Assembly (NCBI GenBank): GCA_951406725.2
Contig: OX597816.1
Span: 132,556,001-132,620,000 of the forward strand
Length of the DNA: 64,000 nucleotides
Reading direction: 5' to 3'
Source of the DNA: Octopus vulgaris
Lineage: Eukaryota
Position 1 is the first letter of the stretch, and each line of letters begins with the position of its first letter. The translations under genes and the position numbers were made by a program. Under the pieces are notes generated by a model. The model did no database searches. It was not told the DNA's origin and was given only the letters and a program-made list of their open reading frames with translations. Positions 15,111-64,000 of the stretch are shown here, piece by piece.

Positions 15111-15416
15111 AAAAATGGAGAGTGTGAACACAGAAAATCAATTCATTTATATAATACAAGTCAATTTCATGTCACCTACGCACGTTTCAATTCCTAACTT
15201 CATATTTTACAATTAAATTGCATTATGAATTTAAAAAAGTAAAAGTCTCTTCAGGGCAAAAATTGATATAAATTAATTTTCATCCTAAAAAGATGGAGAG
15301 TTCATTACAGACTGTAAAATATGAATGAAGTTAGAAATTTAAATATGTGTAGGCAACATGAAATTGACTTCTGTTATGTAAATGAATTTATTTTCTGTGT
15401 TCACAATCTCCATTTT
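15111..15416. repeat. Foldback with ~100-bp arms, outward-facing degenerate hammerhead motifs
   Basis: aaaatggagagtgtgaacacagaaaat... pairs with ...attttctgtgttcacaatctccatttt. Minus strand gcc-CTGAAGA (15254-15248)...GAAAC-gtgc-GTA-ggt (15188-15174); the plus arm has decayed CTAAAAA...TAAAT-atgt-GTA-ggcaa. Confidence 0.85.
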
Positions 15417-20945: not shown

Positions 20946-21074
20946 AACTTATGTGTCTGGTTTACAAATAAAAAAATATATATATGGTAAAACAACAAAT
21001 GAATGAAAGAGACCTTGATATTATGTAAATAGAGGAATTTATCTGTAAATGTAATATGTGACAATTATTCGGTA

Positions 21075-21145
21075 GCCATGATAAAACTCTGAGTTTCAGA
21101 TGCCAAAGTAGAAATCCACGCCGCCATCTCTTCAATTATCCGGTC
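21075..21145 (-). ncRNA. Inverted partner hammerhead motif (C3->U variant, TTGAAGA)
   Basis: Reverse complement reads gaccggataa-TTGAAGA-gatg...catct-GAAA-ctcagag-TT-ttatcatggc, the mirror copy of 21188-21258. Confidence 0.55.
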
Positions 21146-21187
21146 ATCAGAAAAAATGCTATGGGAAAAAAATGCATTTTTCCCAAT

Positions 21188-21258
21188 GGCCGGATAACTG
21201 AAGAGATGGTGGCATGGATTTCCACCTCGGCATCCGAAACTCGGAGTTTTATCATGGC
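21188..21258 (+). ncRNA. Type I hammerhead ribozyme motif (Penelope/retrozyme-like minimal type)
   Basis: CTGAAGA 21198-21204, GAAA 21236-21239. Stem II GATG/CATC plus GTGG/CCAC, with one extra C before GAAA. Near-palindromic stem III ACTC-G-GAGT. GUU triplet 21246-21248. Stem I GATAA/TTATC extended by GCC/GGC. Confidence 0.7.
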
Positions 21259-21532
21259 TACCAAATAATTGTCATATATTACGTTTACAAATATATATGT
21301 GCCAATCATGTAATGAATGTTGTTTTGTGAAAACACATGCCTGAATACAATAACGATTGACATGATCCTGCATTTCATTTAAGTGAGAAGAGACATCTAT
21401 TGTGATAGCTGTGGGAAAAGCTGCAGATCAACTGGGCTGAATAGACATCTTTGGTTTGCAGTTCATTAACAAGGAATGGTCATACTCAGTATTGAGCTGA
21501 CTTACATCACAATTATGTGTGTGTGTGTGTGT

Positions 21533-23479: not shown

Positions 23480-24741
23480 CGGGTCATCCCATAAATAACG
23501 CAGTTTTTTTATACTTCTTTTATTTTTCAAAATTAAGGTAACGAAAATTATTTTTTAATCTAAAATATACTCTCCTTCATTTTCTACAATGCTCTTCCAT
23601 CTATTTGGTTGACTTGCAAGGCTCCTCTTCCAAAATTCACTTGTCAGACGAAAAATACTCCTCCAGTACTGTTCTGACCTCTTCTACAGAATTCATATTT
23701 TTTCCGTCTAAATGATTTTGAAGACTGCAGAATAAATGATCATCAGATGGGGCAATGTTTGGCGAATATGGTGGTTGGGGCATCATCTCTCATTCAAACT
23801 GCTCTAGCCTTTTGAATGTCATTATTTCTGTATGTGGCCAAGCATTATCTATTGGAAGAACACCTTTCGTCTTGAAACCTAAGATGGTCATTATTCTGAC
23901 TTAAGCTGCTCAAGCTGCTCACAGTAGTTCTCCTTTGTTATTGTTTGATTTGGGTTTAAAAGTCCAAAATGGACTAAACCTTTCATATCCCACCAAACAG
24001 ATAACAACACCTTATGTGAGTGAAAACCTTCTTCAGCCTGGGGAACTAGTGTTTCTCCTTTCCCTGCATTGCTTGACATTTTTATAGAGAACCCATTTCT
24101 TGTCACCAGTCACTATTCAGTCCAAAAAAGGTTCATTCATGAGATGTGCACACAAAGAAGAGCACACATTCACTCTCTGCATGTGATTAGACTCAGAAAG
24201 TTTGTGAGGAACCCATTGACCCAATTTGCTGACTTTTCTGATGGCATGCTTGCAGGTGTCAATGAATGGTTGAATGACCAAATCTAAGCTTCTCTGCTAG
24301 TTCCTCAACAATTACTATGGAATTTTTTTCCACCAGGGTTTGCAGGACGTCCTTGTTGAGCTCTACAGATCTTCCAGGATGAGGCTCGTCTTCTAGGCTG
24401 TAGCTTCCAGCTCAGAATTTCTGGAACCACTGTTGATGCTGGCTTACACTTATTGTCTGATCCCCATATACTGCGTTAATGTTCCTCACACTTTCTGTTG
24501 CATTGTTGCCTTTATTGAAATCATAAAGCAAAAATATGCTGAATATGCTCCTTTATCACTTCCATTATAGCTTTGAAAAACTGTTAAAATCAAACTGCAC
24601 TCTTCAAAACTCGTACTAAGAATACATACAAGGTAAAATTACCTGCTTTTATAGCAAGTTGATACAGGTAGTTTATCTCTTACCTCTCAACTTTTAGTTC
24701 ATGCAATTGAAAAAAACTGCATTATTTATAGGATGACCCAG
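23480..24741 (-). mobile_element. Near full-length decayed mariner transposon (~1.26 kb)
   Basis: TIRs gggtcatcccataaataacgcagtttttt / aaaaaactgcattatttataggatgaccc followed by TA. Minus-strand remnants KVLLSVWWDMKG and PPYSPNIAPSDDHLF, with stops and frameshifts. Confidence 0.92.
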
Positions 24742-26595: not shown

Positions 26596-28653
26596 ATTGT
26601 TTTTCTCACACATGCAAATAGATTCGTTTTGGATATTGGTTGGAGGTATTTCTATTTTCTTATTTGTTGTTTGTATTAAAAAGCTATATTAATTTGAAGA
26701 AATGAATGTGAAAGTTTACTCTTGTATCTTCAGTGCCACAATAAATATAGTAAAATGATTAGTAAGTATGATTATAAAAGTATTAGTTTAACCTGTGTAA
26801 GCATGTATCATGTATTTCAATTTTGCACACCTTTTTAAACTTTGCAAAGCTCAATAAATATATGGAAGTGTAAACAAAGAGTGATGATTTTCTACTCTCT
26901 GATGAGCAAGAATCAACAGTACCTTAAGATCCTCACTTGATGTAAAGATGTAACTGTATGAAATATTTATAATACAAAGGTCATTTCCTATTAAGTTGAT
27001 TACTTGAACTGCTCTTTATTCTATTTCCATTTCATTTGACTGATATAGGTTTGTGAACATTGCATTTAACTTTCATCTTCACTACACAATCTTCATGCCT
27101 ACCCAGAGAAGGCAACAAGAGACCACAACAGTGTATCACTCTTGACATTTTTAAGAAAGCCACAAAGCATCAGTTCAATAATATACAAAAATGTTTACAT
27201 CAGCCTTGAAAATAATGTTTGGAAAATTTTATTCCAAAAAGAATTAACTCAATGATTATTGACAAATATTTTTCATTAAAACTACTCAGTTGATAAAATC
27301 TAGCCTTTTATCACTATTGTTATTACCTCATAGGATTCTCACCAATTATCTTTCATTACCATTAAAACTGAGAATTATAATGTAATGGAACATACAGTCA
27401 TTTGATTACTACTTTTAAGCTAAACAAATTCAACATTTCTGTTTAGTTTTTAAGTTTTAGTTTTTAAGCAAATAGCATCCAGTGATCTTGACAGGAGTCT
27501 ACTTCACTATGTATTCAGCTAAGTGCATCATCATCCATGAATAATTTTTTAGTATCAGTAGAGGAATTGAACTTTAGATTGTTACTTTTCCTATTAAATT
27601 GCAAGAAATATTAATTCTTCTATATATGTATTTTGTACTTAAACAGTTCTGTGAAATAAATTAATCTCATTTGATCTTGATTTAAACAATGATTTGATAA
27701 ACTGAATATTGTTTGTAGAGTGATTTTACATCTTTGCCCCGCAACTATTGCGTGAAACTGTAGGAGAAGGGATAGAATTAATGAAATACTTGAACCAGTT
27801 CTATATAAACTTGTAATTGCTTAATCAGTCTGAAACAAACTTGTATTTTAGCAAGTTCACAACTATTTCATATCTTGAAAGCATGATCTAATCATATCAG
27901 TTAAGTAAAATTGAATTAAATACGAAGGTATCATTGTTATTATATATCTGATTCTTATATTTTTCCACTAGTTTCAGTCATTAGACTGCAGCTACGCTGG
28001 GTTACCAACTTCAAGGGCTTAGTCAGTCATATTGACCCCTGTATTTATTTCGGTCTAAGGCTTATTTTATTGACTTCTTTTCAATAAACTACTAAGTTAT
28101 GGGATATAAAGGGTCACAATATGTAAGAATTAGCATGCGTATTTGAAGAGCTTGTGCACAGTTTCTGTTTACTAAATTTCTTTTGTAAGATTTTAGACAA
28201 CCCAAGGCTATAATAGAAGACACCCAAGGTGCTCCACAATAAAATCAAACTTACATGGTTGTGGAGTCAACTTATTGATCACATAGCCAAGTTTGTATCC
28301 ATGCATCATTTATGATACACATTCTCAATTTTTTTTTTCAACTACCAGAGTAACTTGAGACTTATGAAAGGAAACCTTTATATTACTCAGAATGTATGAA
28401 ACAAAGGCTAACTAAAAGTCTGAAAGCAAGCATAGGCATTTAGGACAAACTTGTGAAAATGTTTTGGACAGGCAAAGGGTAAAGTAACTTTCTGGTGGAG
28501 ATCTTCCTATTTTAATGGAGGAACATTCATCAGACTAATATGGTCACCAAGAGAGCCAAACAGATATTAACGAAACTAAATCTCATTATGTTGAACTTAC
28601 TATAATGTTTATTCAAAATATATTGTCAGCAGTTCTTTTCTTTTCTTTATCAG

Positions 28654-28887
28654 CTGACATTGCCGAACATCTGTGTGAACGAGTCCTAAGTGTTCTTTTC
28701 GAGATCTGGATTTTAGCATGTGCTCGATGTTTTCCATCCCCTTCCTTATGGAAGACTTTCCGTAATATGTGTGTTGATTGGCGCCATCATGATGCCCTTG
28801 TCCAACAGTGGCATCGCATCAACCATGCACTGTTATCGCGTTTGCTCAAGATCATGTATGGACCCAGTTATCCTGAATTACAAATAT
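28654..28887 (+). CDS. RALGAPB: RALGAPB exon (DIAEHLCERVLSVLFEIW...YGPSYPELQI), 234 nt, phase 1-1
   Basis: tttatcAG acceptor, GTAAGT donor; LACARCFPSPSLWKT and WRHH motifs of RalGAP-beta. Confidence 0.95.
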
Positions 28888-28952
28888 GTAAGTTGAATAT
28901 TCTTCTCAATATCTTTTACCTTTAAAAAAAAATTGTAAGTAAATATTACACC

Positions 28953-28983
<31 letters not shown>

Positions 28984-30375
28984 GAGTGAGAGAGTTGTGC
29001 ATGCCATTAAAGTGACACTGGGGTACAAATATATGAAGCCCAACATACCCATCATGACTACCCATCTCATAAGAATACACCAGGCACATTCCAGTGGTGA
29101 ATTATTCAAATCCCAAAGGGTTCCTCTCAGCACATGGCTATAATGCTCCCCAACTACTTCTGCTTGTGATCAAAGATGCACTTGTCAGCCACTAAGGGAC
29201 ATGCTCAACTGATTAAGGTCAAACAACTGACAAGCAAATCTGTGGTATTGAGCTGATTGTTGGCTGTAGTCCATCTTTTATACCAACACAAAACATGTAC
29301 ATGATAACACTTTTAATCATTTAAGATCAAAAGCCATGAGAGCCTGTGCCTGGTACGGCATTAGGGCATTTATCAATAATATTGATACGCTAACTTTTTG
29401 TTTTTGTATGTACCTGTTGTGTACGTCACATTTACTTCAAAGAAGTGGCAAAGCAAGAGAAAGTAAGTAAGAGAGTGAGAGAGAGAGAAAGAGAGAGAGT
29501 GAAAGAGACAGTGAGTGATGACAGCATTTGTTTTGTGTTTTTAAATGTTTATCACATCGCAAGAGAAGTAGATACATAGATATATATAAAGACATTGTTA
29601 AATCAGAAGCAGGAGAGAAGAAGGACACAAAGGAACTGAAAGAGAAAGAGTGAGACACAGTAGATACATAAATCCAAAGAAAAGTTCATACATACACACA
29701 GCAAATATTGGATGTCAATTTCACTTTCTATTACCATACAAGGATAAAATTAACTTACAAATGGCTGAGTACTCCACAGATATGCATAACATTAATGTAG
29801 TTCTCAGGGTAATTCAGCTTCACACAGAATATGACAAGGTTGGCCCCTTTTAATTACAGCTACAACTTGAGACATATATATATGAATGTATTTGTGTGTG
29901 TGTATAATTTACGTTAGTTAAAATATGTTTGCAATAATAAGTGTTGCATGGTGGAAATAAATGCAATTACCAAACTGTCATTCGTAAATCCACATATTAT
30001 TTCGTTCTTTTGCATTTCAATTTGTACATTAAGGTTCTTTGAATATGTACGATGTATTTTAAGGTTAAATAGTAATTCCATTTACATTTCTATAATTGAG
30101 ATATTTTGGTTGGATTATATAGTCATTGGTGTTACATTACTTACTATATTCTGTAGCTGTCACAATATACTTTTCTAGGCCTGACATTTTTGCGGGGACG
30201 GGGCCAATTGATTAGATCGACCCCAGTACACAACTGATACTTAATTTATCGACCCCAAAAGGATGAAAGGCAAAGTCGATCTTGGTAGAATTTGAACTCA
30301 GAGGTCAATTAAAATATCCTATGATCCTTCCCAGACAAAAAAGACATCATCAATGAACTGTTCATTGATGACATC

Positions 30376-30681
30376 TTGCATTTCTGTGACTGTTATGCTA
30401 AAAACTACGACTTTAAGTTCAACGTAAAATTTATGTATAGTCATTCAAAAACTAGTGTTGAATTTTTGGACACAAGAGTTAAGTTTTCTGGAGGCAGAAT
30501 AGTGACAGAATTATTTTGCAAGCGCACGTCATCTCACATTTATCTCCACTGCTACTCCGATCATTTACATCATATAATTTGGTCAAATCCGAAATCCCAA
30601 TTTCAGAAGATAAAACAGATTTGTACTGACTTAAGGGATTACTGGAAACATGTAACTGCAATTACAGTGAATCATGATTAA
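30376..30681 (+). mobile_element. Penelope-like element RT/thumb fragment
   Basis: VKF..S..SVEFLD..IVTELFCKRT..YLH..SDH..H..PKSQFQKIKQICT matches the C-terminal RT region of Penelope-like elements. Confidence 0.75.
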
Positions 30682-46519: not shown

Positions 46520-47953
46520 GATATATAGAAAGAAACACAAAAGTGGCAAGCCAGCTGAAGCCTATCAGAAAAAATCCTTAGCAACATTTCTTCTAGTTTT
46601 ACTTTCTGAGTTCAAATGCCATTGAAATCAACTTTGCCTTTTATCCTTTTCAGGTCAATAAAATATATAACAGTTGTACACTGGGGTCATACTGGCCCTG
46701 TCCCTAAAATTAGAAAAGTTGTATAGACACACACATTTGACATGATCAGATGGGTAAAAATGGCCATAATGTGACCTCTAAGATATAAAAATGTTGGCTT
46801 CATTTGAATCCTATTTGTGAAGAAAATAAAGAATATGTATGTGTGTTTGTGTCTTTTGTTGATGTGCATCAGTGAAAGATATGCAAATCAGCAAGAATAT
46901 GAAAAATCCAAGGCTTTGTAAACAAAGTTGGTTAAGATATTTGTTCTGCATTGAACTAGATACTCCTTTATCTCTGTTGCCATCAGAAATGTTAGTTCTC
47001 CATTGAAAACCGATAACTAACAAAGATATTCTTTGCAAATTGCGACATAGATAAATCATCATTGTCATTTTTGCATCTACTTTTCTATGCTTGTATGAGG
47101 CAGATTTTCTCTGGCCAGATGTCTTTCTTGTTGCCAATCCTCACCTGTTTCCAGTTAAGGGAATATTTTCCTATATCTGGACATGTTTTCCCGAAAGACT
47201 GGAAATAAACTATCTCACTTGTATGACACTGATGTTCATTTGAAGCTTTCACCTGACATTTAGACAAGGCTACACCAATCACATGCACACAAACACACAT
47301 ATGTGCATGGACACACACACGCACACACACACACACACACACACTTATACACATAACCACACAACTGACTTCTTTCAGTTTCCATCTACCAAATCTACTT
47401 GCAAGGCCTCAGTTGGTCCAGGGCTATTGTAGAAGGCACTTGCCCAAGGTGCCATGCAGTGAAATGAACACAAACCACATGGTTGGGAAGCAAGTTTCTT
47501 AACCACACAGCTATACCCACAGTTATTGCAATATAGATAAATATCTAAGATAAATCCATTACAATAACCTTATGTTGCAATTATAATCCATTCATTTCAG
47601 CTGTAAACTTATTGTTCATGTCCTTTAAGTGAAAACATATTGATTGACTTGTAGTCAAGAGTTTATGTCAGCTACTTAAATCTCATAGGTTTTGGCTTTG
47701 GTTGACTTGGAGTTACAGTATAAGACACTTGCCCAAAGTACCACACAATGGGATTGAACCTGGATCCATGGGGTTGGAAAGTTTACTTAATTATGACATC
47801 AATTCAATGATATTATAATGTTAGTCTTGTTTTTAACAGATCCGATTCCATTTTTCATGAAACCCATGTATTTTAATCAAGCTCATTGTACTATGAATTA
47901 GACAAGATATTTTTTAAAAAATTTATTAGGGACAGAGGCAGTATTAATACCAA

Positions 47954-48225
47954 GAGATAATATTTATCCCTTCTTAAATGTGGATGTTCTGATAGAACAA
48001 ACTATACTGCAGTAGTTACCACAAGAGAAGCTTTCATATTGGCTTTTGATGCAAAATGCACTCTGTTTATATTGCTATACGCAAGAGTGCATTTTAATTA
48101 AAGCAATATAAATAAAAGTGCATTTTGCACCAAAAGCTAATATGAGAGATTCTCTCATGGTAACTATTGCAGTATAGTTTGTTCTGACAGAGCATCCTCA
48201 TTTATGTGGGGATAAATATTACCTC
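47954..48225. repeat. Foldback with ~120-bp arms
   Basis: gagataatatttatccc...gcaaaatgcact..tatattgct mirrored by agcaatata..agtgcattttgc...gggataaatattacctc. Confidence 0.92.
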
Positions 48226-48278
48226 AAGATAGTTTTACTCTTATCTATATGAACTGCATTTCTAATACATTAATAATA

Positions 48279-50522: not shown

Positions 50523-51254
50523 GTATGATATTCTGATGAATTTACATTTTAAGCTTACAACAGGGGTATTTCATTCACATTATTACTAACTACTACTAGC
50601 TACTACTACTTTTTCTTCTTAACATTTTTTTTTTTACATTTCAAGTAATGTCCATTTTAATCATTGCTTCCCTATGTAGGCTTATACAGATATTTTTAAA
50701 GACTATATACAAATAACAATTGCCAACTAAATAAATAAGTTAGAAAATTTATGGCTGTATACAAATGGCCAAAGAAATTTAGTGGTTGTATAGTGAAGGC
50801 TCATGACCTAGTGGTTAGTGTGTTTAACTCATGATCATAAGATTGCAGTTTCAATTTCTACACCAGGCAACATATTGTGTTTTTGAGGGTAAAACCAGAA
50901 TTAGCTCCAGCCTAATAAGCTGTAAACTGTGACAGACCTGACACCTAAGATACATTTAGGAAGAAAATTGATAATTATACAAATAACAAAAAAAGAAAAA
51001 AAATTGACAGGATTCCAACATCCTTCTGGATAAGTCAGAACTAATTATATATATAGTCTATGAATGTATCTTTAATATTGTAGTTGTTCACTTAAGGTAA
51101 CTGATTGTTGTGTGTGTGTGTGTGTGTGAAGCTAGGTTGATATAGCAATATTAAAGGCGTCTACAACAAAATATAGCTGACTATTGTAATAATGCTTCTT
51201 ATTGTTTATAATGAAGTGTATTATGTCCTCTGCTGCTGCATTATTATTGGCCAG

Positions 51255-52700
51255 CTCTATGTCATCTACCCCCATGCTCTTATATGCAATATTGTTGTCT
51301 ACCCCCTTGCTCTTAAATACAATGTTGTTATCTTCACCCCACCCCTGCTCTTATATACAATATTGTCATCTACCCTCTGCTCTTATATACAATATTGTTA
51401 TCTACCCCCTTGCTATTATATGCAATATTGTCATCTACCCTCTGCTCTTATATACAATATTGTTATCTACCCCCTTGCTATTATATGCAATATTGTCATC
51501 TACCCTCTGCTCTTATATACAATATTGTTATCTACCCCCATGATCTTATATGCAATATTGTCATCTACCTTCTGCTCTTATATACAATATTATTATCTAC
51601 CTCCATGTTCTTGTATACAATATTGTTATCTACCCCCTTGCTATTATATGCAATATTGTCATCTACCCTCTACTCTTATATACAATATTGTTATCTACCC
51701 CCTTGCTATTATATGCAATATTGTCATCTACCCTCTGCTCTTATATACAATATTGTTATCTACCCCCATGATCTTATATGCGATATTGTCATCTACCTCC
51801 TGCTCTTATATACAATATTATTATCTACCTCCATGTTCTTGTATACAATATTATTATCGATCGCCTCTTCTCTTATATGCAATATTGTTATTTACACCCT
51901 ACCCCTGCTCTTATATGCAATATTGTTATCTACCCCCTGCTTTTATATACAATAGTGTTAATCTACCTCCTTGCTCTTATATGCAATATTGTCGTCTACC
52001 CCATGTTACTATATGCATTATTGTTATCCCCCCCCCCCGCTCTTATATGCAATATTGTTATCTACCTCTATCTCTAATGTGCAATATTGTCATTTACCCC
52101 TTGCTCTTATATGCAATATTGATATCTACCCCATATTACTATATGTAATATTGTTACCTACCCCCTTGCTCTTATATGCAATATTATCATGTACCCTATG
52201 TTACTATATGCAATATTGTTATCTATCCCCCATCTCTTATATGCAATATTGTTGTCTTCTCTCATGCCCTCATATGCAATATTGTTACCTACTCCTGTGC
52301 TCTTATATGCATAATTGTTATCTACCCCTATCTTATTGTATACAATATTGTTATCTGCTCCCACATTATTATATGCAATATTGTTGTCCACCTTCCTGCT
52401 CTTATATGCAATACTGTCATCTACTCCCATATGGACCACTATTCTCTTACCTGTAGTATATCTGCTGCCTACGTGTTACTGGATGTAATATGTCATAGCC
52501 TCCCTGTTATCATACACATAACATTGTTATCTACAAGCAATGCAATATTGTAAACCATTTGCCAACTGTTTATATGTAATATGTTATCTGCTCCCATTTT
52601 ACTGTAGTATCATCCATCTCCATGTTACTACATGTAATATGTCATCTATTCCCATGCTACTATTTGCAATATCATCTATCTCTATATTACCACATGTATA
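51255..52700. repeat. Minisatellite, 32-33 bp unit (tgctcttatatRcaatattgtYatctaccccY), 228-bp higher-order repeat in the core
   Basis: Variant tgatcttata recurs at 51541 and 51769; units alternate between two types; both ends degenerate. Confidence 0.97.
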
Positions 52701-61913: not shown

Positions 61914-62538
61914 TGAGGGGAAGTCAAAAATTATCTGCACTTTTGCCATATCTTTATTATTGTCACACTGCCTTCTGCATATTTGTATTTATAGTTGGTG
62001 CTATTGTGGTCACACCATTTTTCTTTCTGGCTTTACAGTGTAAGCATGGCCACTCCACTAGCAATGTGTACCAAAGAAAGGCAAAGAGCAGTGATCCAAG
62101 AGATGGTAATGGTGAACCGGTTCACCATTACCAGCTCTCAAACTTGCTGAATTTTCTTTTCACTGGTGGAGGTTGATGGGCGTCCTGTCCCCTCTTAATG
62201 CATCACACTTGTCCAGTCACTTTTAAACTTCTTGATCCACCACACAGTAGTGCACTATCCCTTTATTGTACTAAAAGCCTCCGATTAATTTCAGCACCTG
62301 ACACACCTTTTGACCAGAGAAATCGGATCACTGCTCTTTGTTTTTCTTTGGTGCACATTGCTAGTGGAGCAACCATACTTATGCTGTAAAGCCAGAAAGA
62401 AAAATGGAACAATCTGGCTAAAACTTTGATCACATGACTGCAATAGTACCAACTATAAGCACTCATGCACAGACGACATTGTGACAATAGTAAAGATACA
62501 TTATGGTGAAAGGGCAGATAATTCTTTACCTTCCCTTG
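61914..62538. mobile_element. Mariner-derived foldback element made of two 5' ends
   Basis: TA flanks, ~190-bp inverted arms. Both strands begin a transposase N-terminus: + MATPLAMCTKERQRAVI, - MVAPLAMCTKEKQRAVIRFLWSKGVS. Confidence 0.88.
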
Positions 62539-62773
62539 TACATGTGTTTGTGAGTATATGTCTATATATTTATGTGTAGGTGGGTGTACGGCTGCATGCT
62601 TAGGAAACTTGCTTCCCATCCTCATAGTTTTGGGTTCAATCCTACTGCACGGTACCTTGGGCAAGTATCTTCTACAATCACTTTGGGCAGACCAAAGCCT
62701 TTTAAGTGGACTTGATTGATGGAAACTGAAAGAAACCTGCTGTGTGTGAGTGTATGTGTTTTTATATGTGTAC

Positions 62774-62807
<34 letters not shown>

Positions 62808-63703
62808 CTGAAGTTTGATAAATAAGTATCCGGACTGTTACCATAGTAACAAAGCTAAAGCACACAGAGTGAAACCGCTTGGCAAAGATTGACCTTGAAC
62901 TCTGCTGTGCATGTGCACTAAGTTTTAACATTCTAGCTCACTTCCACTGTTTACAGCAGTACTTGGAAGGAAGGTGTGTTGCATGTGAATATCGCATTGG
63001 CCATGACAAAGAAAGCTGTCATGGTGATACCTGCTCAGAGGCCTACGCAAAGTTGCAGAAAGTGTATGGAGACGAGTGTATTAACTGTGCGCAAGTGTAC
63101 GAGTGGTTCAGATGTTTCCAAAATGGCTGAAAAAATGTCAATATTGACAAATGTTCTGGGAGACCTGCAACCAGCAGAACTGAGAAAAATGCTGCAGATG
63201 TGCATGCAGCTGTGAGGGGAAATTGTCTAATCACCATCCATGAGTTATCAGAGTATGTGCAGATTAGTTATGGTTCAGTTCAGTCCATTATCACTGAAGA
63301 TTTGCATATGAGACATGTGTCTGCCAAGTTTGTGCCAAAACTGCTTTTAGCTGACCAAAAAGACACTCTTGTTTCAGTTGCACAAGATCTCCTTGATTAT
63401 GTTGAGAATGATGAAAACTTTTTGAAAACTTTGCATAAGCCTCTAGGCAGATATCGCCAAGCTTTTGGCAACATTTGATGCAGATTCTCTGCTCAACTTT
63501 CTCTGTCATGGTCAATGCAATGATCACACGCTACACACCTTCCTTCCAAGTACTGCTGTAAACAGCAGAAATGAGCTAGAACATTAAAACTTAGTGTGCA
63601 TGCACAACAGAGTTCAAGGTCAGTCTGTGCCAAGCGGCTTCACTTTGCATGCTTTAGCTTTGTTACTATGGCAACAATCCGGATACTTATTGATCAGACC
63701 ACG
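62808..63703. mobile_element. Second mariner-derived foldback element made of two 5' ends
   Basis: ~240-bp inverted arms (ataagtatccgga / tccggatacttat). + strand HTH region ..QVYEWFRCF..ITIHELS..SAKFVPKLL; - strand MTEKVEQRICIKCCQKLG. No catalytic domain. Confidence 0.9.
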
Positions 63704-64000
63704 TATGTACATATATATATATATGCAGTTATGTATATCTGCATGTTTGTGTCTCCTTATCTTGGTGTTGCATGTTAGTTGTAAATGAGTGTCACTGTCA
63801 TACAAGCAGTGTAATTCAATACTCTGGAAAATATGTCTGGCTATGGGGAAATGTCACCTTATTTAGAAGCAGGTGGTAGTTGGTGAAAGGAAGGGCTTGT
63901 GGCCATAGAAAATCAGCCTCAATAAATTCCATCTGACCCATGCATGGAAAAGTGGATGTTAGAATGATGATGATGATGATGGTGGTGGTGGTAGTGCCGG

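What the first reader, a model, noticed from the sequence alone, without database searches (positions are those of the whole stretch)
21041..21293. Foldback made of two outward-facing hammerhead ribozymes; the sense copy is preceded by its own antisense
Seen: the right arm reads gccggataa-CUGAAGA-gaug-gugg..ccac..cauc-c-GAAA-cuc-g-gag-UU-uuauc-a-uggc on the RALGAPB sense strand. It has both core boxes, stems I and II, a near-palindromic stem III and a GUU site (cut after 21248). The left arm is the same motif on the minus strand (C3->U). Established: minimal type I hammerheads with palindromic stem III occur in the terminal repeats of Penelope-like elements and retrozymes and cleave as dimers, and these elements often leave inverted repeats. 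Inference: this is a non-coding, ribozyme-bearing mobile unit. In the pre-mRNA the left arm is transcribed first and would bury the ribozyme in ~115 bp of dsRNA, protecting the intron from self-cleavage and offering an ADAR substrate. GUU and the extra C before GAAA are non-optimal, so activity is unproven.
Basis: partly seen in the sequence, partly recalled or inferred. Interest (0 to 1): 0.85.

Follow-up and report, generated by a model that had tools for sequence, protein, structure and literature searches.

The report
Inverted Penelope retroelement stub with hammerheads
This hairpin is a decayed insertion of two short tail-end pieces of a very common Penelope-like jumping gene, joined head to head in an octopus intron, each still carrying the element's small self-cutting RNA motif; the arrangement is already described for this class of element.

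Summary
In detail: a 123-bp inverted repeat (106/123 identical) with a type I hammerhead motif in each arm; a descriptor finds only these two in the window and none in 100 shuffles. It is not a fixed foldback unit. Thousands of contigs from each of three runs (756 from a fourth) lie on it. The family runs 56 nt further at the left end only (a tail), both family ends abut (TA)n, and other copies are foldbacks with variable joints. An 11-nt repeat flanks the insertion. This is the published insertion structure of Penelope-like elements (PLEs); stem III, target and 3' end resemble the Hydra clade. No reverse-transcriptase ORF was linked. Family variation avoids the core (0 of 37 positions against 14 of 33), so the master's ribozyme was probably selected, but both local copies are damaged. 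Protection of the intron and ADAR editing are unshown. The scan has noted such PLE stubs in other genomes. One lead: the arms may come from two subfamilies. Verdict: new member of a known kind, low interest.

The parts
20960..20983 (+). Left copy of a candidate target-site duplication: 11-mer at 20960-20970, then an A run and a short (TA)n
   Evidence: 11-mer is identical to 21283-21293 and occurs only at these two places in the window; 44 of 5000 random windows give as long a match
20984..21039 (-). One-sided 3' 'tail' of the family (56 nt here; loose ends suggest the family tail is about 9 nt longer)
   Evidence: family depth continues to 20984; loose ends before 20984 (30, 26, 29 contigs in three runs) and before 21040 (33, 4, 31, 47) both run into (TA)n
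21040..21163 (-). Left arm: 5'-truncated 3' end of the element, antisense to RALGAPB
   Evidence: family sequence continues past 21163 in other copies (loose ends)
21075..21144 (-). Left hammerhead motif, C3->U (21135), private to this copy
   Evidence: 98% of laid depth has the C3 base
21162..21185 (.). Short palindrome at the joint between the arms (9-nt arms, 6-nt centre)
   Evidence: (I15)
21174..21293 (+). Right arm: 5'-truncated 3' end of the element, sense with RALGAPB, ending at the family's short (tailless) end
21189..21258 (+). Right type I hammerhead motif, core intact; predicted cut after 21248; private G->A at 21214 breaks a distal stem II pair
21283..21299 (+). Right copy of the candidate target-site duplication, overlapping the arm's last 11 nt and explaining its two non-family bases (21283, 21290)
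28650..28892 (+). Nearest downstream RALGAPB coding exon (residues 193-273); the element lies in the intron before it

Best explanation
A single, now decayed retrotransposition product of a high-copy octopus Penelope-like element, most like the Hydra clade. The element's RT/GIY-YIG protein (encoded elsewhere; inferred) cut a TA-rich site. Two cDNAs were made from the element's 3' end, one from the distal start (with tail, left) and one from the proximal start (no tail, right). Both stopped about 15-25 nt upstream of hammerhead stem I and were joined head to head through a short palindrome, leaving a target duplication. The hammerhead is the normal 3'/pLTR ribozyme of the master element, built to work as a dimer through its near-palindromic stem III. 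At this locus it is a passenger: C3 is lost on the left, stem II is weakened on the right, and in RALGAPB pre-mRNA the arms should zip into a ~120-bp duplex. Shown: repeat, motif, high-copy family, ends, variable joints, conservation pattern. Inferred: PLE origin, clade, priming order, inactivity.
For:: 5975, 756, 3092 and 5415 contigs of four runs lie on 551 bp; summed depth ~7e5 on the arm against 25-80 on the unique right flank in X1 (ratio ~2-3e4; the tool warns this is no copy number, so order of magnitude only). Two family ends, both at (TA)n, match the two ends of this locus. All 15 joints shown run from antisense into sense at different points and low depth (7-58). Depth at the CUGAAGA box is about one fifth of that at stem III, as with 5' truncation. 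0 of 37 core and proximal-stem positions vary at >=8% against 14 of 33 other hammerhead positions (Fisher p 4e-6); the bulge, loop-3 base and extra base all vary. Literature: inverted 5'-truncated copy, one-sided tail, (TA)n bias (PMC8557442); head-to-head pLTRs, 8-10-bp TSD, palindrome at the junction (PMC3846280); paired hammerheads 100-700 bp apart on opposite strands (PMC4209133). In the File S2 table of PMC8557442, 5 of 26 Hydra rows have this same stem III, Penelope-13_HM has a hammerhead on each strand, and Hydra-1_Obim shares 13 nt across the first core box (compared by eye).
Against: No RT or endonuclease ORF was linked to the family: loose ends give only ~20-35 nt upstream of the arms. 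The tail (56-65 nt) is longer than the 30-40 nt described. The core is not significantly better conserved than the 3' flank (0 of 37 against 3 of 35, p 0.11), many variable sites are CpG, and the structure classes were drawn by me. No phased copies were available, so true covariation was not tested. Joints rest on single contigs with sides of 24-57 nt at 80% likeness and 99 of 114 were hidden; some may be assembly chimeras. The depth fall could partly be an edge or divergence effect. The TSD is imperfect (extra A run; p about 0.01). Rfam finds no hammerhead.
Confidence: 0.85

Rival explanations
1. The family is a short non-autonomous derivative (SINE- or retrozyme-like pLTR) whose RNA begins just upstream of the hammerhead and is mobilised in trans by a PLE protein; no autonomous parent carries this exact end any more. 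Compatible with most of the best explanation; differs in what the template was.
For: Very high abundance of a <200-nt piece with little sequence upstream; loose-end agreement falls within ~20 nt; 9 of 15 sense arms in shown joints start at 21174-21195, near the stem I edge; both local arms stop 15-26 nt before stem I; pLTRs suffice for trans-mobilisation (PMC3846280); animal retrozymes derive from pLTRs (bioRxiv 10.64898/2026.07.22.740005).
Against: No head-to-tail array here; no promoter identified; ordinary 5' truncation or RT stalling at the structured RNA gives the same picture; the reference itself ends at 21163/21174, which biases where boundaries are seen.
Confidence: 0.3
2. One reading: the foldback is a mobile or selected unit whose antisense arm shields the host intron from self-cleavage and serves as a regulatory ADAR substrate.
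For: The duplex is overwhelmingly favoured in silico; the core is intact only on the strand sense to RALGAPB; retrozymes are depleted from introns in Xenopus, so sense ribozymes may carry a cost.
Against: Variable joints and unequal ends; geometry is the default PLE outcome; both arms carry private, mostly G:C->A:T changes at about 4-6%, as in neutral decay; PLE monomers barely cleave.
Confidence: 0.07
3. A miniature inverted-repeat DNA transposon (MITE) with 120-bp terminal repeats that happen to include hammerhead boxes.
For: Long arms, short spacer, TA at both ends; mariner-type foldbacks occur in the same window.
Against: Tail on one side only, many different centres, 5'-ward loss of depth, hammerhead matching PLE rows.
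Confidence: 0.03

Closest known systems
Hydra-clade PLEs (Craig et al. 2021, PMC8557442), e.g. Hydra-1_Obim, Hydra-2_Amil, Penelope-3/-13/-16_HM
   Same: Hammerhead close to the 3' end; 4-bp near-palindromic stem III with one central base (identical in 5 of 26 rows); pyrimidine before GAA; (TA)n targets; Penelope-13_HM has an inverted 5'-truncated copy with a hammerhead on each strand; 13-nt identity with Hydra-1_Obim over the first core box (by eye).
   Different: Not the same family as Hydra-1_Obim (different stems; 0 hits for 4 probes in that supplement); longer, interrupted stem II (31 nt between the boxes) with one unpaired base on its 3' side; much higher abundance; no ORF linked.
Minimal PLE hammerheads (Cervera and de la Pena 2014, PMC4209133)
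   Same: Type I, long helix II, palindromic helix III, no evident loop 1-loop 2 contact, massive solo copies, pairs on opposite strands 100-700 bp apart.
   Different: Lacks the consensus extra H between A9 and G10.1; stem III is longer than the 1-2 bp of most rows in their Fig. S3; Octopus is not in the searchable supplement file.
EN+ PLE insertion structure (Arkhipova et al. 2013, PMC3846280; Frangieh et al. 2024, PMC11167929)
   Same: Head-to-head inverted 3' ends, optional tail on one, TSD, palindrome at the joint; two RT start sites bounding the tail; both strands nicked and extended in vitro.
   Different: No ORF body between the arms; tail 56-65 nt; the TSD overlaps the element's end with 9 of 11 identity, whereas the anole element initiated without homology.
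Non-LTR retrozymes (PMC7229834; bioRxiv 10.64898/2026.07.22.740005)
   Same: Non-coding, type I hammerhead, animal, PLE-related.
   Different: Retrozymes are head-to-tail tandem repeats; this locus is inverted and truncated.

Membership tests
Type I hammerhead ribozyme | CUGANGA, GAAA and UH boxes in order | tested here: met
   Right arm. The left arm has C3->U and fails this on its own.
Type I hammerhead ribozyme | Stems I, II, III can form round the core | tested here: met
   19 of 20 model pairs in each arm; stem III homoduplex -9.7 and -7.4 kcal/mol. The isolated right arm's minimum-energy fold misses proximal stem II.
Type I hammerhead ribozyme | Covariation across copies | tested here: inconclusive
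   Variation avoids core and proximal stems (0/37 vs 14/33) but no phased copies were available.
Type I hammerhead ribozyme | Self-cleavage after H17 | not testable with these tools
   Only contigs served; they cannot show RNA ends.
Rfam hammerhead families | Match to a covariance model | tested here: not met
   0 matches at E<=10; not filed under an Rfam family.
Minimal PLE hammerhead, Cervera consensus | Extra H between positions 9 and 10.1 | tested here: not met
   G follows A9 directly; the unpaired base is on the 3' side. Works like it, not filed as a strict member.
Minimal PLE hammerhead, Cervera consensus | G10.1-C11.1 pair and palindromic stem III | tested here: met
Endonuclease-positive Penelope-like element insertion | Interspersed, 5'-truncated copies with shared 3' end | tested here: met
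Endonuclease-positive Penelope-like element insertion | Inverted 5'-truncated partner with variable joint | tested here: met
   This locus and 15 shown joints of 114
Endonuclease-positive Penelope-like element insertion | Tail on one end only | tested here: met
   20984-21039; longer than the 30-40 nt described
Endonuclease-positive Penelope-like element insertion | Target-site duplication | tested here: inconclusive
   11-nt repeat, p about 0.01, imperfect beyond it; no empty allele seen
Endonuclease-positive Penelope-like element insertion | RT plus GIY-YIG ORF upstream of this end in full-length copies | not testable with these tools
   No genome held; 0 hits in four collection scans
Hydra clade | (TA)n target and canonical 3' hammerhead with near-palindromic stem III | tested here: met
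   (TA)n preference is shared with Naiad, so it is not diagnostic alone
Hydra clade | RT/EN signatures (RWK, DKT, CxCX5C linker, no CCHH) | not testable with these tools
   No ORF linked; clade is a resemblance only
Non-LTR retrozyme | Head-to-tail tandem units each with a hammerhead | tested here: not met
   Only the two inverted arms match in the window
MITE | Fixed symmetric terminal repeats and uniform internal structure | tested here: not met

The most novel reading that the evidence does not exclude
The two arms were copied from two different RNA molecules. They differ at four sites that are polymorphic in the family; at two of these (21235, 21243) the depth tables suggest two linked haplotypes (mixed fraction <=0.25 against 0.51 if unlinked), and the left arm carries one, the right arm the other. 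If this holds across the family's many foldbacks, inverted PLE insertions arise by a dimeric RT priming both target strands on two RNAs, possibly held together by the hammerhead's stem III duplex, rather than by self-priming on one template. That would give the weakly cleaving PLE hammerhead a role as an RNA dimerisation signal, and this family, with thousands of marked copies, would make it testable by counting. Parallel CpG loss in the left arm is the plain alternative.
Probability: 0.2. Interest if true: 0.6.

Novelty: new member of a known kind. Interest (0 to 1): 0.25.

Why it matters
The locus itself is ordinary retroelement debris. The family is more useful than the copy: the role of PLE hammerheads is still stated to be unclear (PMC8557442; PMC11167929) and so is the origin of the inverted arm (PMC3846280). 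A very abundant octopus family with subfamily marks inside the ribozyme allows three counting tests: strand bias of intact solo copies in introns (cost of cleavage in vivo), truncation points against the cut site, and arm concordance in foldbacks. Its foldbacks would also be a ready source of intronic dsRNA in an animal known for heavy A-to-I editing (recalled), though no editing was shown here.

Tried and rejected
No whole genome is held, so solo versus inverted counts and a phased alignment were not possible. Exact-pattern scans found 0 loci in metagenome contigs, viral contigs and prokaryote genomes, as expected for an animal repeat. Rfam: no hammerhead match. Sequencing runs: no RNA holder listed; all 24 runs are contigs; 4 of 24 were laid. 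One contig of a run guessed to be RNA (X4) covers 21238-21494 with 2 unnamed differences that must lie in the arm; they cannot be told from family alleles, so no editing claim is made, and the counts of A>G places were alike in all four runs (8, 9, 9, 7). No empty-site joint was among the 15 joints shown (99 hidden); run X10 has no cover of 21349-21443, which proves nothing. Recalled RALGAPB motifs found no upstream exon; tblastn settled it. The RT-like relic at 30325-30681 got no Pfam hit, one chimeric-looking protein hit and feature-level HTH_animal/RVT_1 neighbours; nothing ties it to this family. Lunse et al. 2017 was not held; I saw only its title in a reference list. In-print check: 'hammerhead+ribozyme+octopus' gave 8 papers, 7 listed, none on this family by title or abstract; 'octopus+Penelope+transposable elements' 20 papers, 17 listed; probes hit nothing in two supplements (4 probes, 2 probes; line-wrapped FASTA could hide a match, and the O. 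vulgaris repeat library is not in the held file). Repbase and Dfam could not be searched, so the family may already be catalogued. One supplement file of PMC4209133 was not searchable and the bioRxiv preprint's supplements were not seen. Five shown joints share a skip of 94 nt; I could not explain this and did not use it.

Full report
Observation. The window holds an inverted repeat at 21037-21159 and 21174-21296, 106 of 123 bases identical, 16 of 17 differences transitions; the + strand folds into one hairpin far more stable than 200 shuffles (z -20.7). Each arm carries a type I hammerhead layout facing outward. On the right: stem I 21189-21197/21249-21258, CUGAAGA 21198-21204, a 31-nt stem II region, GAAA 21236-21239, a near-palindromic stem III round 21243, and UH at 21247-21248. 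The left arm has U for C3. A relaxed descriptor finds these two motifs and no other in 64 kb, and none in 100 shuffles (descriptor written after seeing the motif). Rfam does not recognise them. An exon at 28650 is 99% identical to Octopus sinensis RALGAPB; residues 193-922 map to + exons from there on and residues 1-192 are not in the window, so the element most likely lies in a long RALGAPB intron with the right arm in sense.

The family. No genome was held and four collection scans were empty, so family evidence comes from contigs of 4 of 24 listed runs laid on 20950-21500 at 80% likeness. 5975, 756, 3092 and 5415 contigs were laid. Summed depth is about 7e5 on the arm and 25-80 on the unique right flank in X1; the ratio of 2-3e4 is only an order of magnitude, since the tool warns that depth is no copy number. 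The family is present under three coded organism labels. It extends 56 nt beyond the arm on the left, to 20984. Loose ends cluster before 20984 and before 21040 and both run into (TA)n, so the family has a long and a short 3' end; this locus has the long end on the left and the short end (mirror 21293) on the right. Towards the centre depth falls: about one fifth at the CUGAAGA box relative to stem III. All 15 joints shown in the main table (of 114) lead from antisense into sense at different points and low depth, that is, other foldback copies with other centres; both arms keep the first core box in 3 of 15. Two joints in the second list go back on the same strand, as partial tandems would. 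These joints rest on single contigs with short sides and some may be chimeric.

Junctions. An 11-nt direct repeat lies at 20960-20970 and 21283-21293, nowhere else in the window; 44 of 5000 random windows match as well. It explains the two bases at which the right arm's end departs from the family, and resembles the family end at 9 of 11 positions, which suggests a target duplication with microhomology-assisted priming; this is one imperfect case and no empty allele was seen. A 24-nt palindrome sits at the centre.

Is the ribozyme real? Mapping sites that vary at 8% or more onto the model, and leaving out changes private to this locus, none of 37 core and proximal-stem positions varies, against 14 of 33 others (p 4e-6). 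The stem I bulge (21254), the loop-3 base (21243), the extra base (21235) and the facing mismatch 21213/21226 are all common variants; at two CpGs only the tolerated side varies. Against this: the 3' flank is nearly as conserved as the core (3 of 35, p 0.11), the classes are mine, and no phased covariation was possible. I read it as selection on master elements. The local copies are damaged: 98% of laid depth has C3, which the left arm lost; the right arm has private changes including 21214, and alone is predicted not to form proximal stem II (0.009), while inside the foldback hammerhead pairs vanish.

Mechanism. Shown: the parts above. Inferred: a PLE protein nicked a TA-rich site and two cDNAs, begun at the two family ends, stopped just upstream of stem I and were joined head to head. 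In vitro the anole PLE protein nicks and extends both strands and starts at two sites that bound the tail; its hammerhead cleaves only with protein and is not needed for insertion (PMC11167929, parts 1-2 of 4 read). Self-priming on one antisense template is the published alternative for the inverted arm (PMC3846280, passages).

Comparison. Cervera and de la Pena described minimal hammerheads in PLE repeats, thousands of solos, pairs on opposite strands 100-700 bp apart, and no monomer activity (PMC4209133, parts 1-3 of 4 and one supplement part). Craig et al. described the inverted truncated copy, the one-sided tail and (TA)n targeting, and listed Hydra-clade hammerheads (PMC8557442, passages, section 11, supplement parts 2 and 52 and searches): 5 of 26 Hydra rows have this stem III, Penelope-13_HM has one on each strand, and Hydra-1_Obim shares 13 nt over the first box but is a different family (by eye). 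PLEs cover 6.83% of the O. vulgaris genome in 190 families (PMC13282606, part 1 of 3, passages and supplement search). Also seen: passages of PMC6765202 and PMC7229834, part 1 and passages of the retrozyme preprint. It works like a PLE 3' hammerhead; membership of PLEs is met on insertion features but the defining ORF is unlinked, and it departs from the Cervera consensus in lacking the extra base after A9. It fails the retrozyme and MITE tests.

Antisense-before-sense is the automatic result of a head-to-head insertion and holds for either strand. With a weak, dimer- or protein-dependent ribozyme in a decaying copy, shielding is unnecessary as an explanation and unshown. The duplex is a plausible ADAR substrate, but the data served could not test it.

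Boldest reading. The arms differ at four family-polymorphic sites (21210, 21226, 21235, 21243). For 21235 and 21243 the tables imply linkage (mixed fraction <=0.25 against 0.51 expected in three runs, <=0.19 against 0.37 in the fourth; unphased and rough), and the arms carry opposite haplotypes. Two templates in one insertion would favour a two-RNA, dimeric mechanism and hint that stem III pairs the RNAs. CpG decay is frequent at this locus, so parallel mutation is not excluded; probability 0.2.

Verdict. Real feature, known kind: a decayed inverted PLE stub from an abundant octopus family that my searches did not find described, though Repbase and Dfam were out of reach. The scan's notes list similar stubs in other genomes (unchecked) and none like this sequence. 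Interest 0.25.

Noticed in passing
window 30325-30681 (+): Stop-free 118-aa stretch that reads like a retroelement RT C-terminal/thumb region (FIDD motif; PLE-like by recall); feature neighbours carry HTH_animal and RVT_1. No hammerhead near it.
   Followed up: partly
window 62769-63743 and 62015-62407: Two mariner-type foldbacks (250-nt and 83-nt arms); the larger holds a Mos1-type HTH_48 fragment.
   Followed up: partly
window 47940-48239 and 15112-15416: Further inverted repeats (123-nt and 92-nt arms), unrelated to this family and without hammerhead boxes.
   Followed up: partly
family sequence just upstream of window 21174/21163 (loose ends): Reads like a branch point, pyrimidine run and AG ending about 15 nt before stem I; in D. 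virilis Penelope an intron ends at helix I. Resemblance only.
   Followed up: no
window 21102 onward, loose ends in X3 and X10: A subfamily with a different distal stem II/loop 2 that appears to keep the same pairing pattern and the mismatch at 21209/21230.
   Followed up: partly
joints: 9 of 15 sense arms start at 21174-21195 and 8 of 15 antisense arms end within about 11 nt of the cut-site mirror; too few, and alignment-biased, to interpret. Five joints share a 94-nt skip.
   Followed up: partly
window 51200-52700: Tandem array of about 33/65-nt units in a RALGAPB intron.
   Followed up: no
window 23891-24109 (-): Transposase_1 (mariner DDE) fragment, E 2.8e-16.
   Followed up: no
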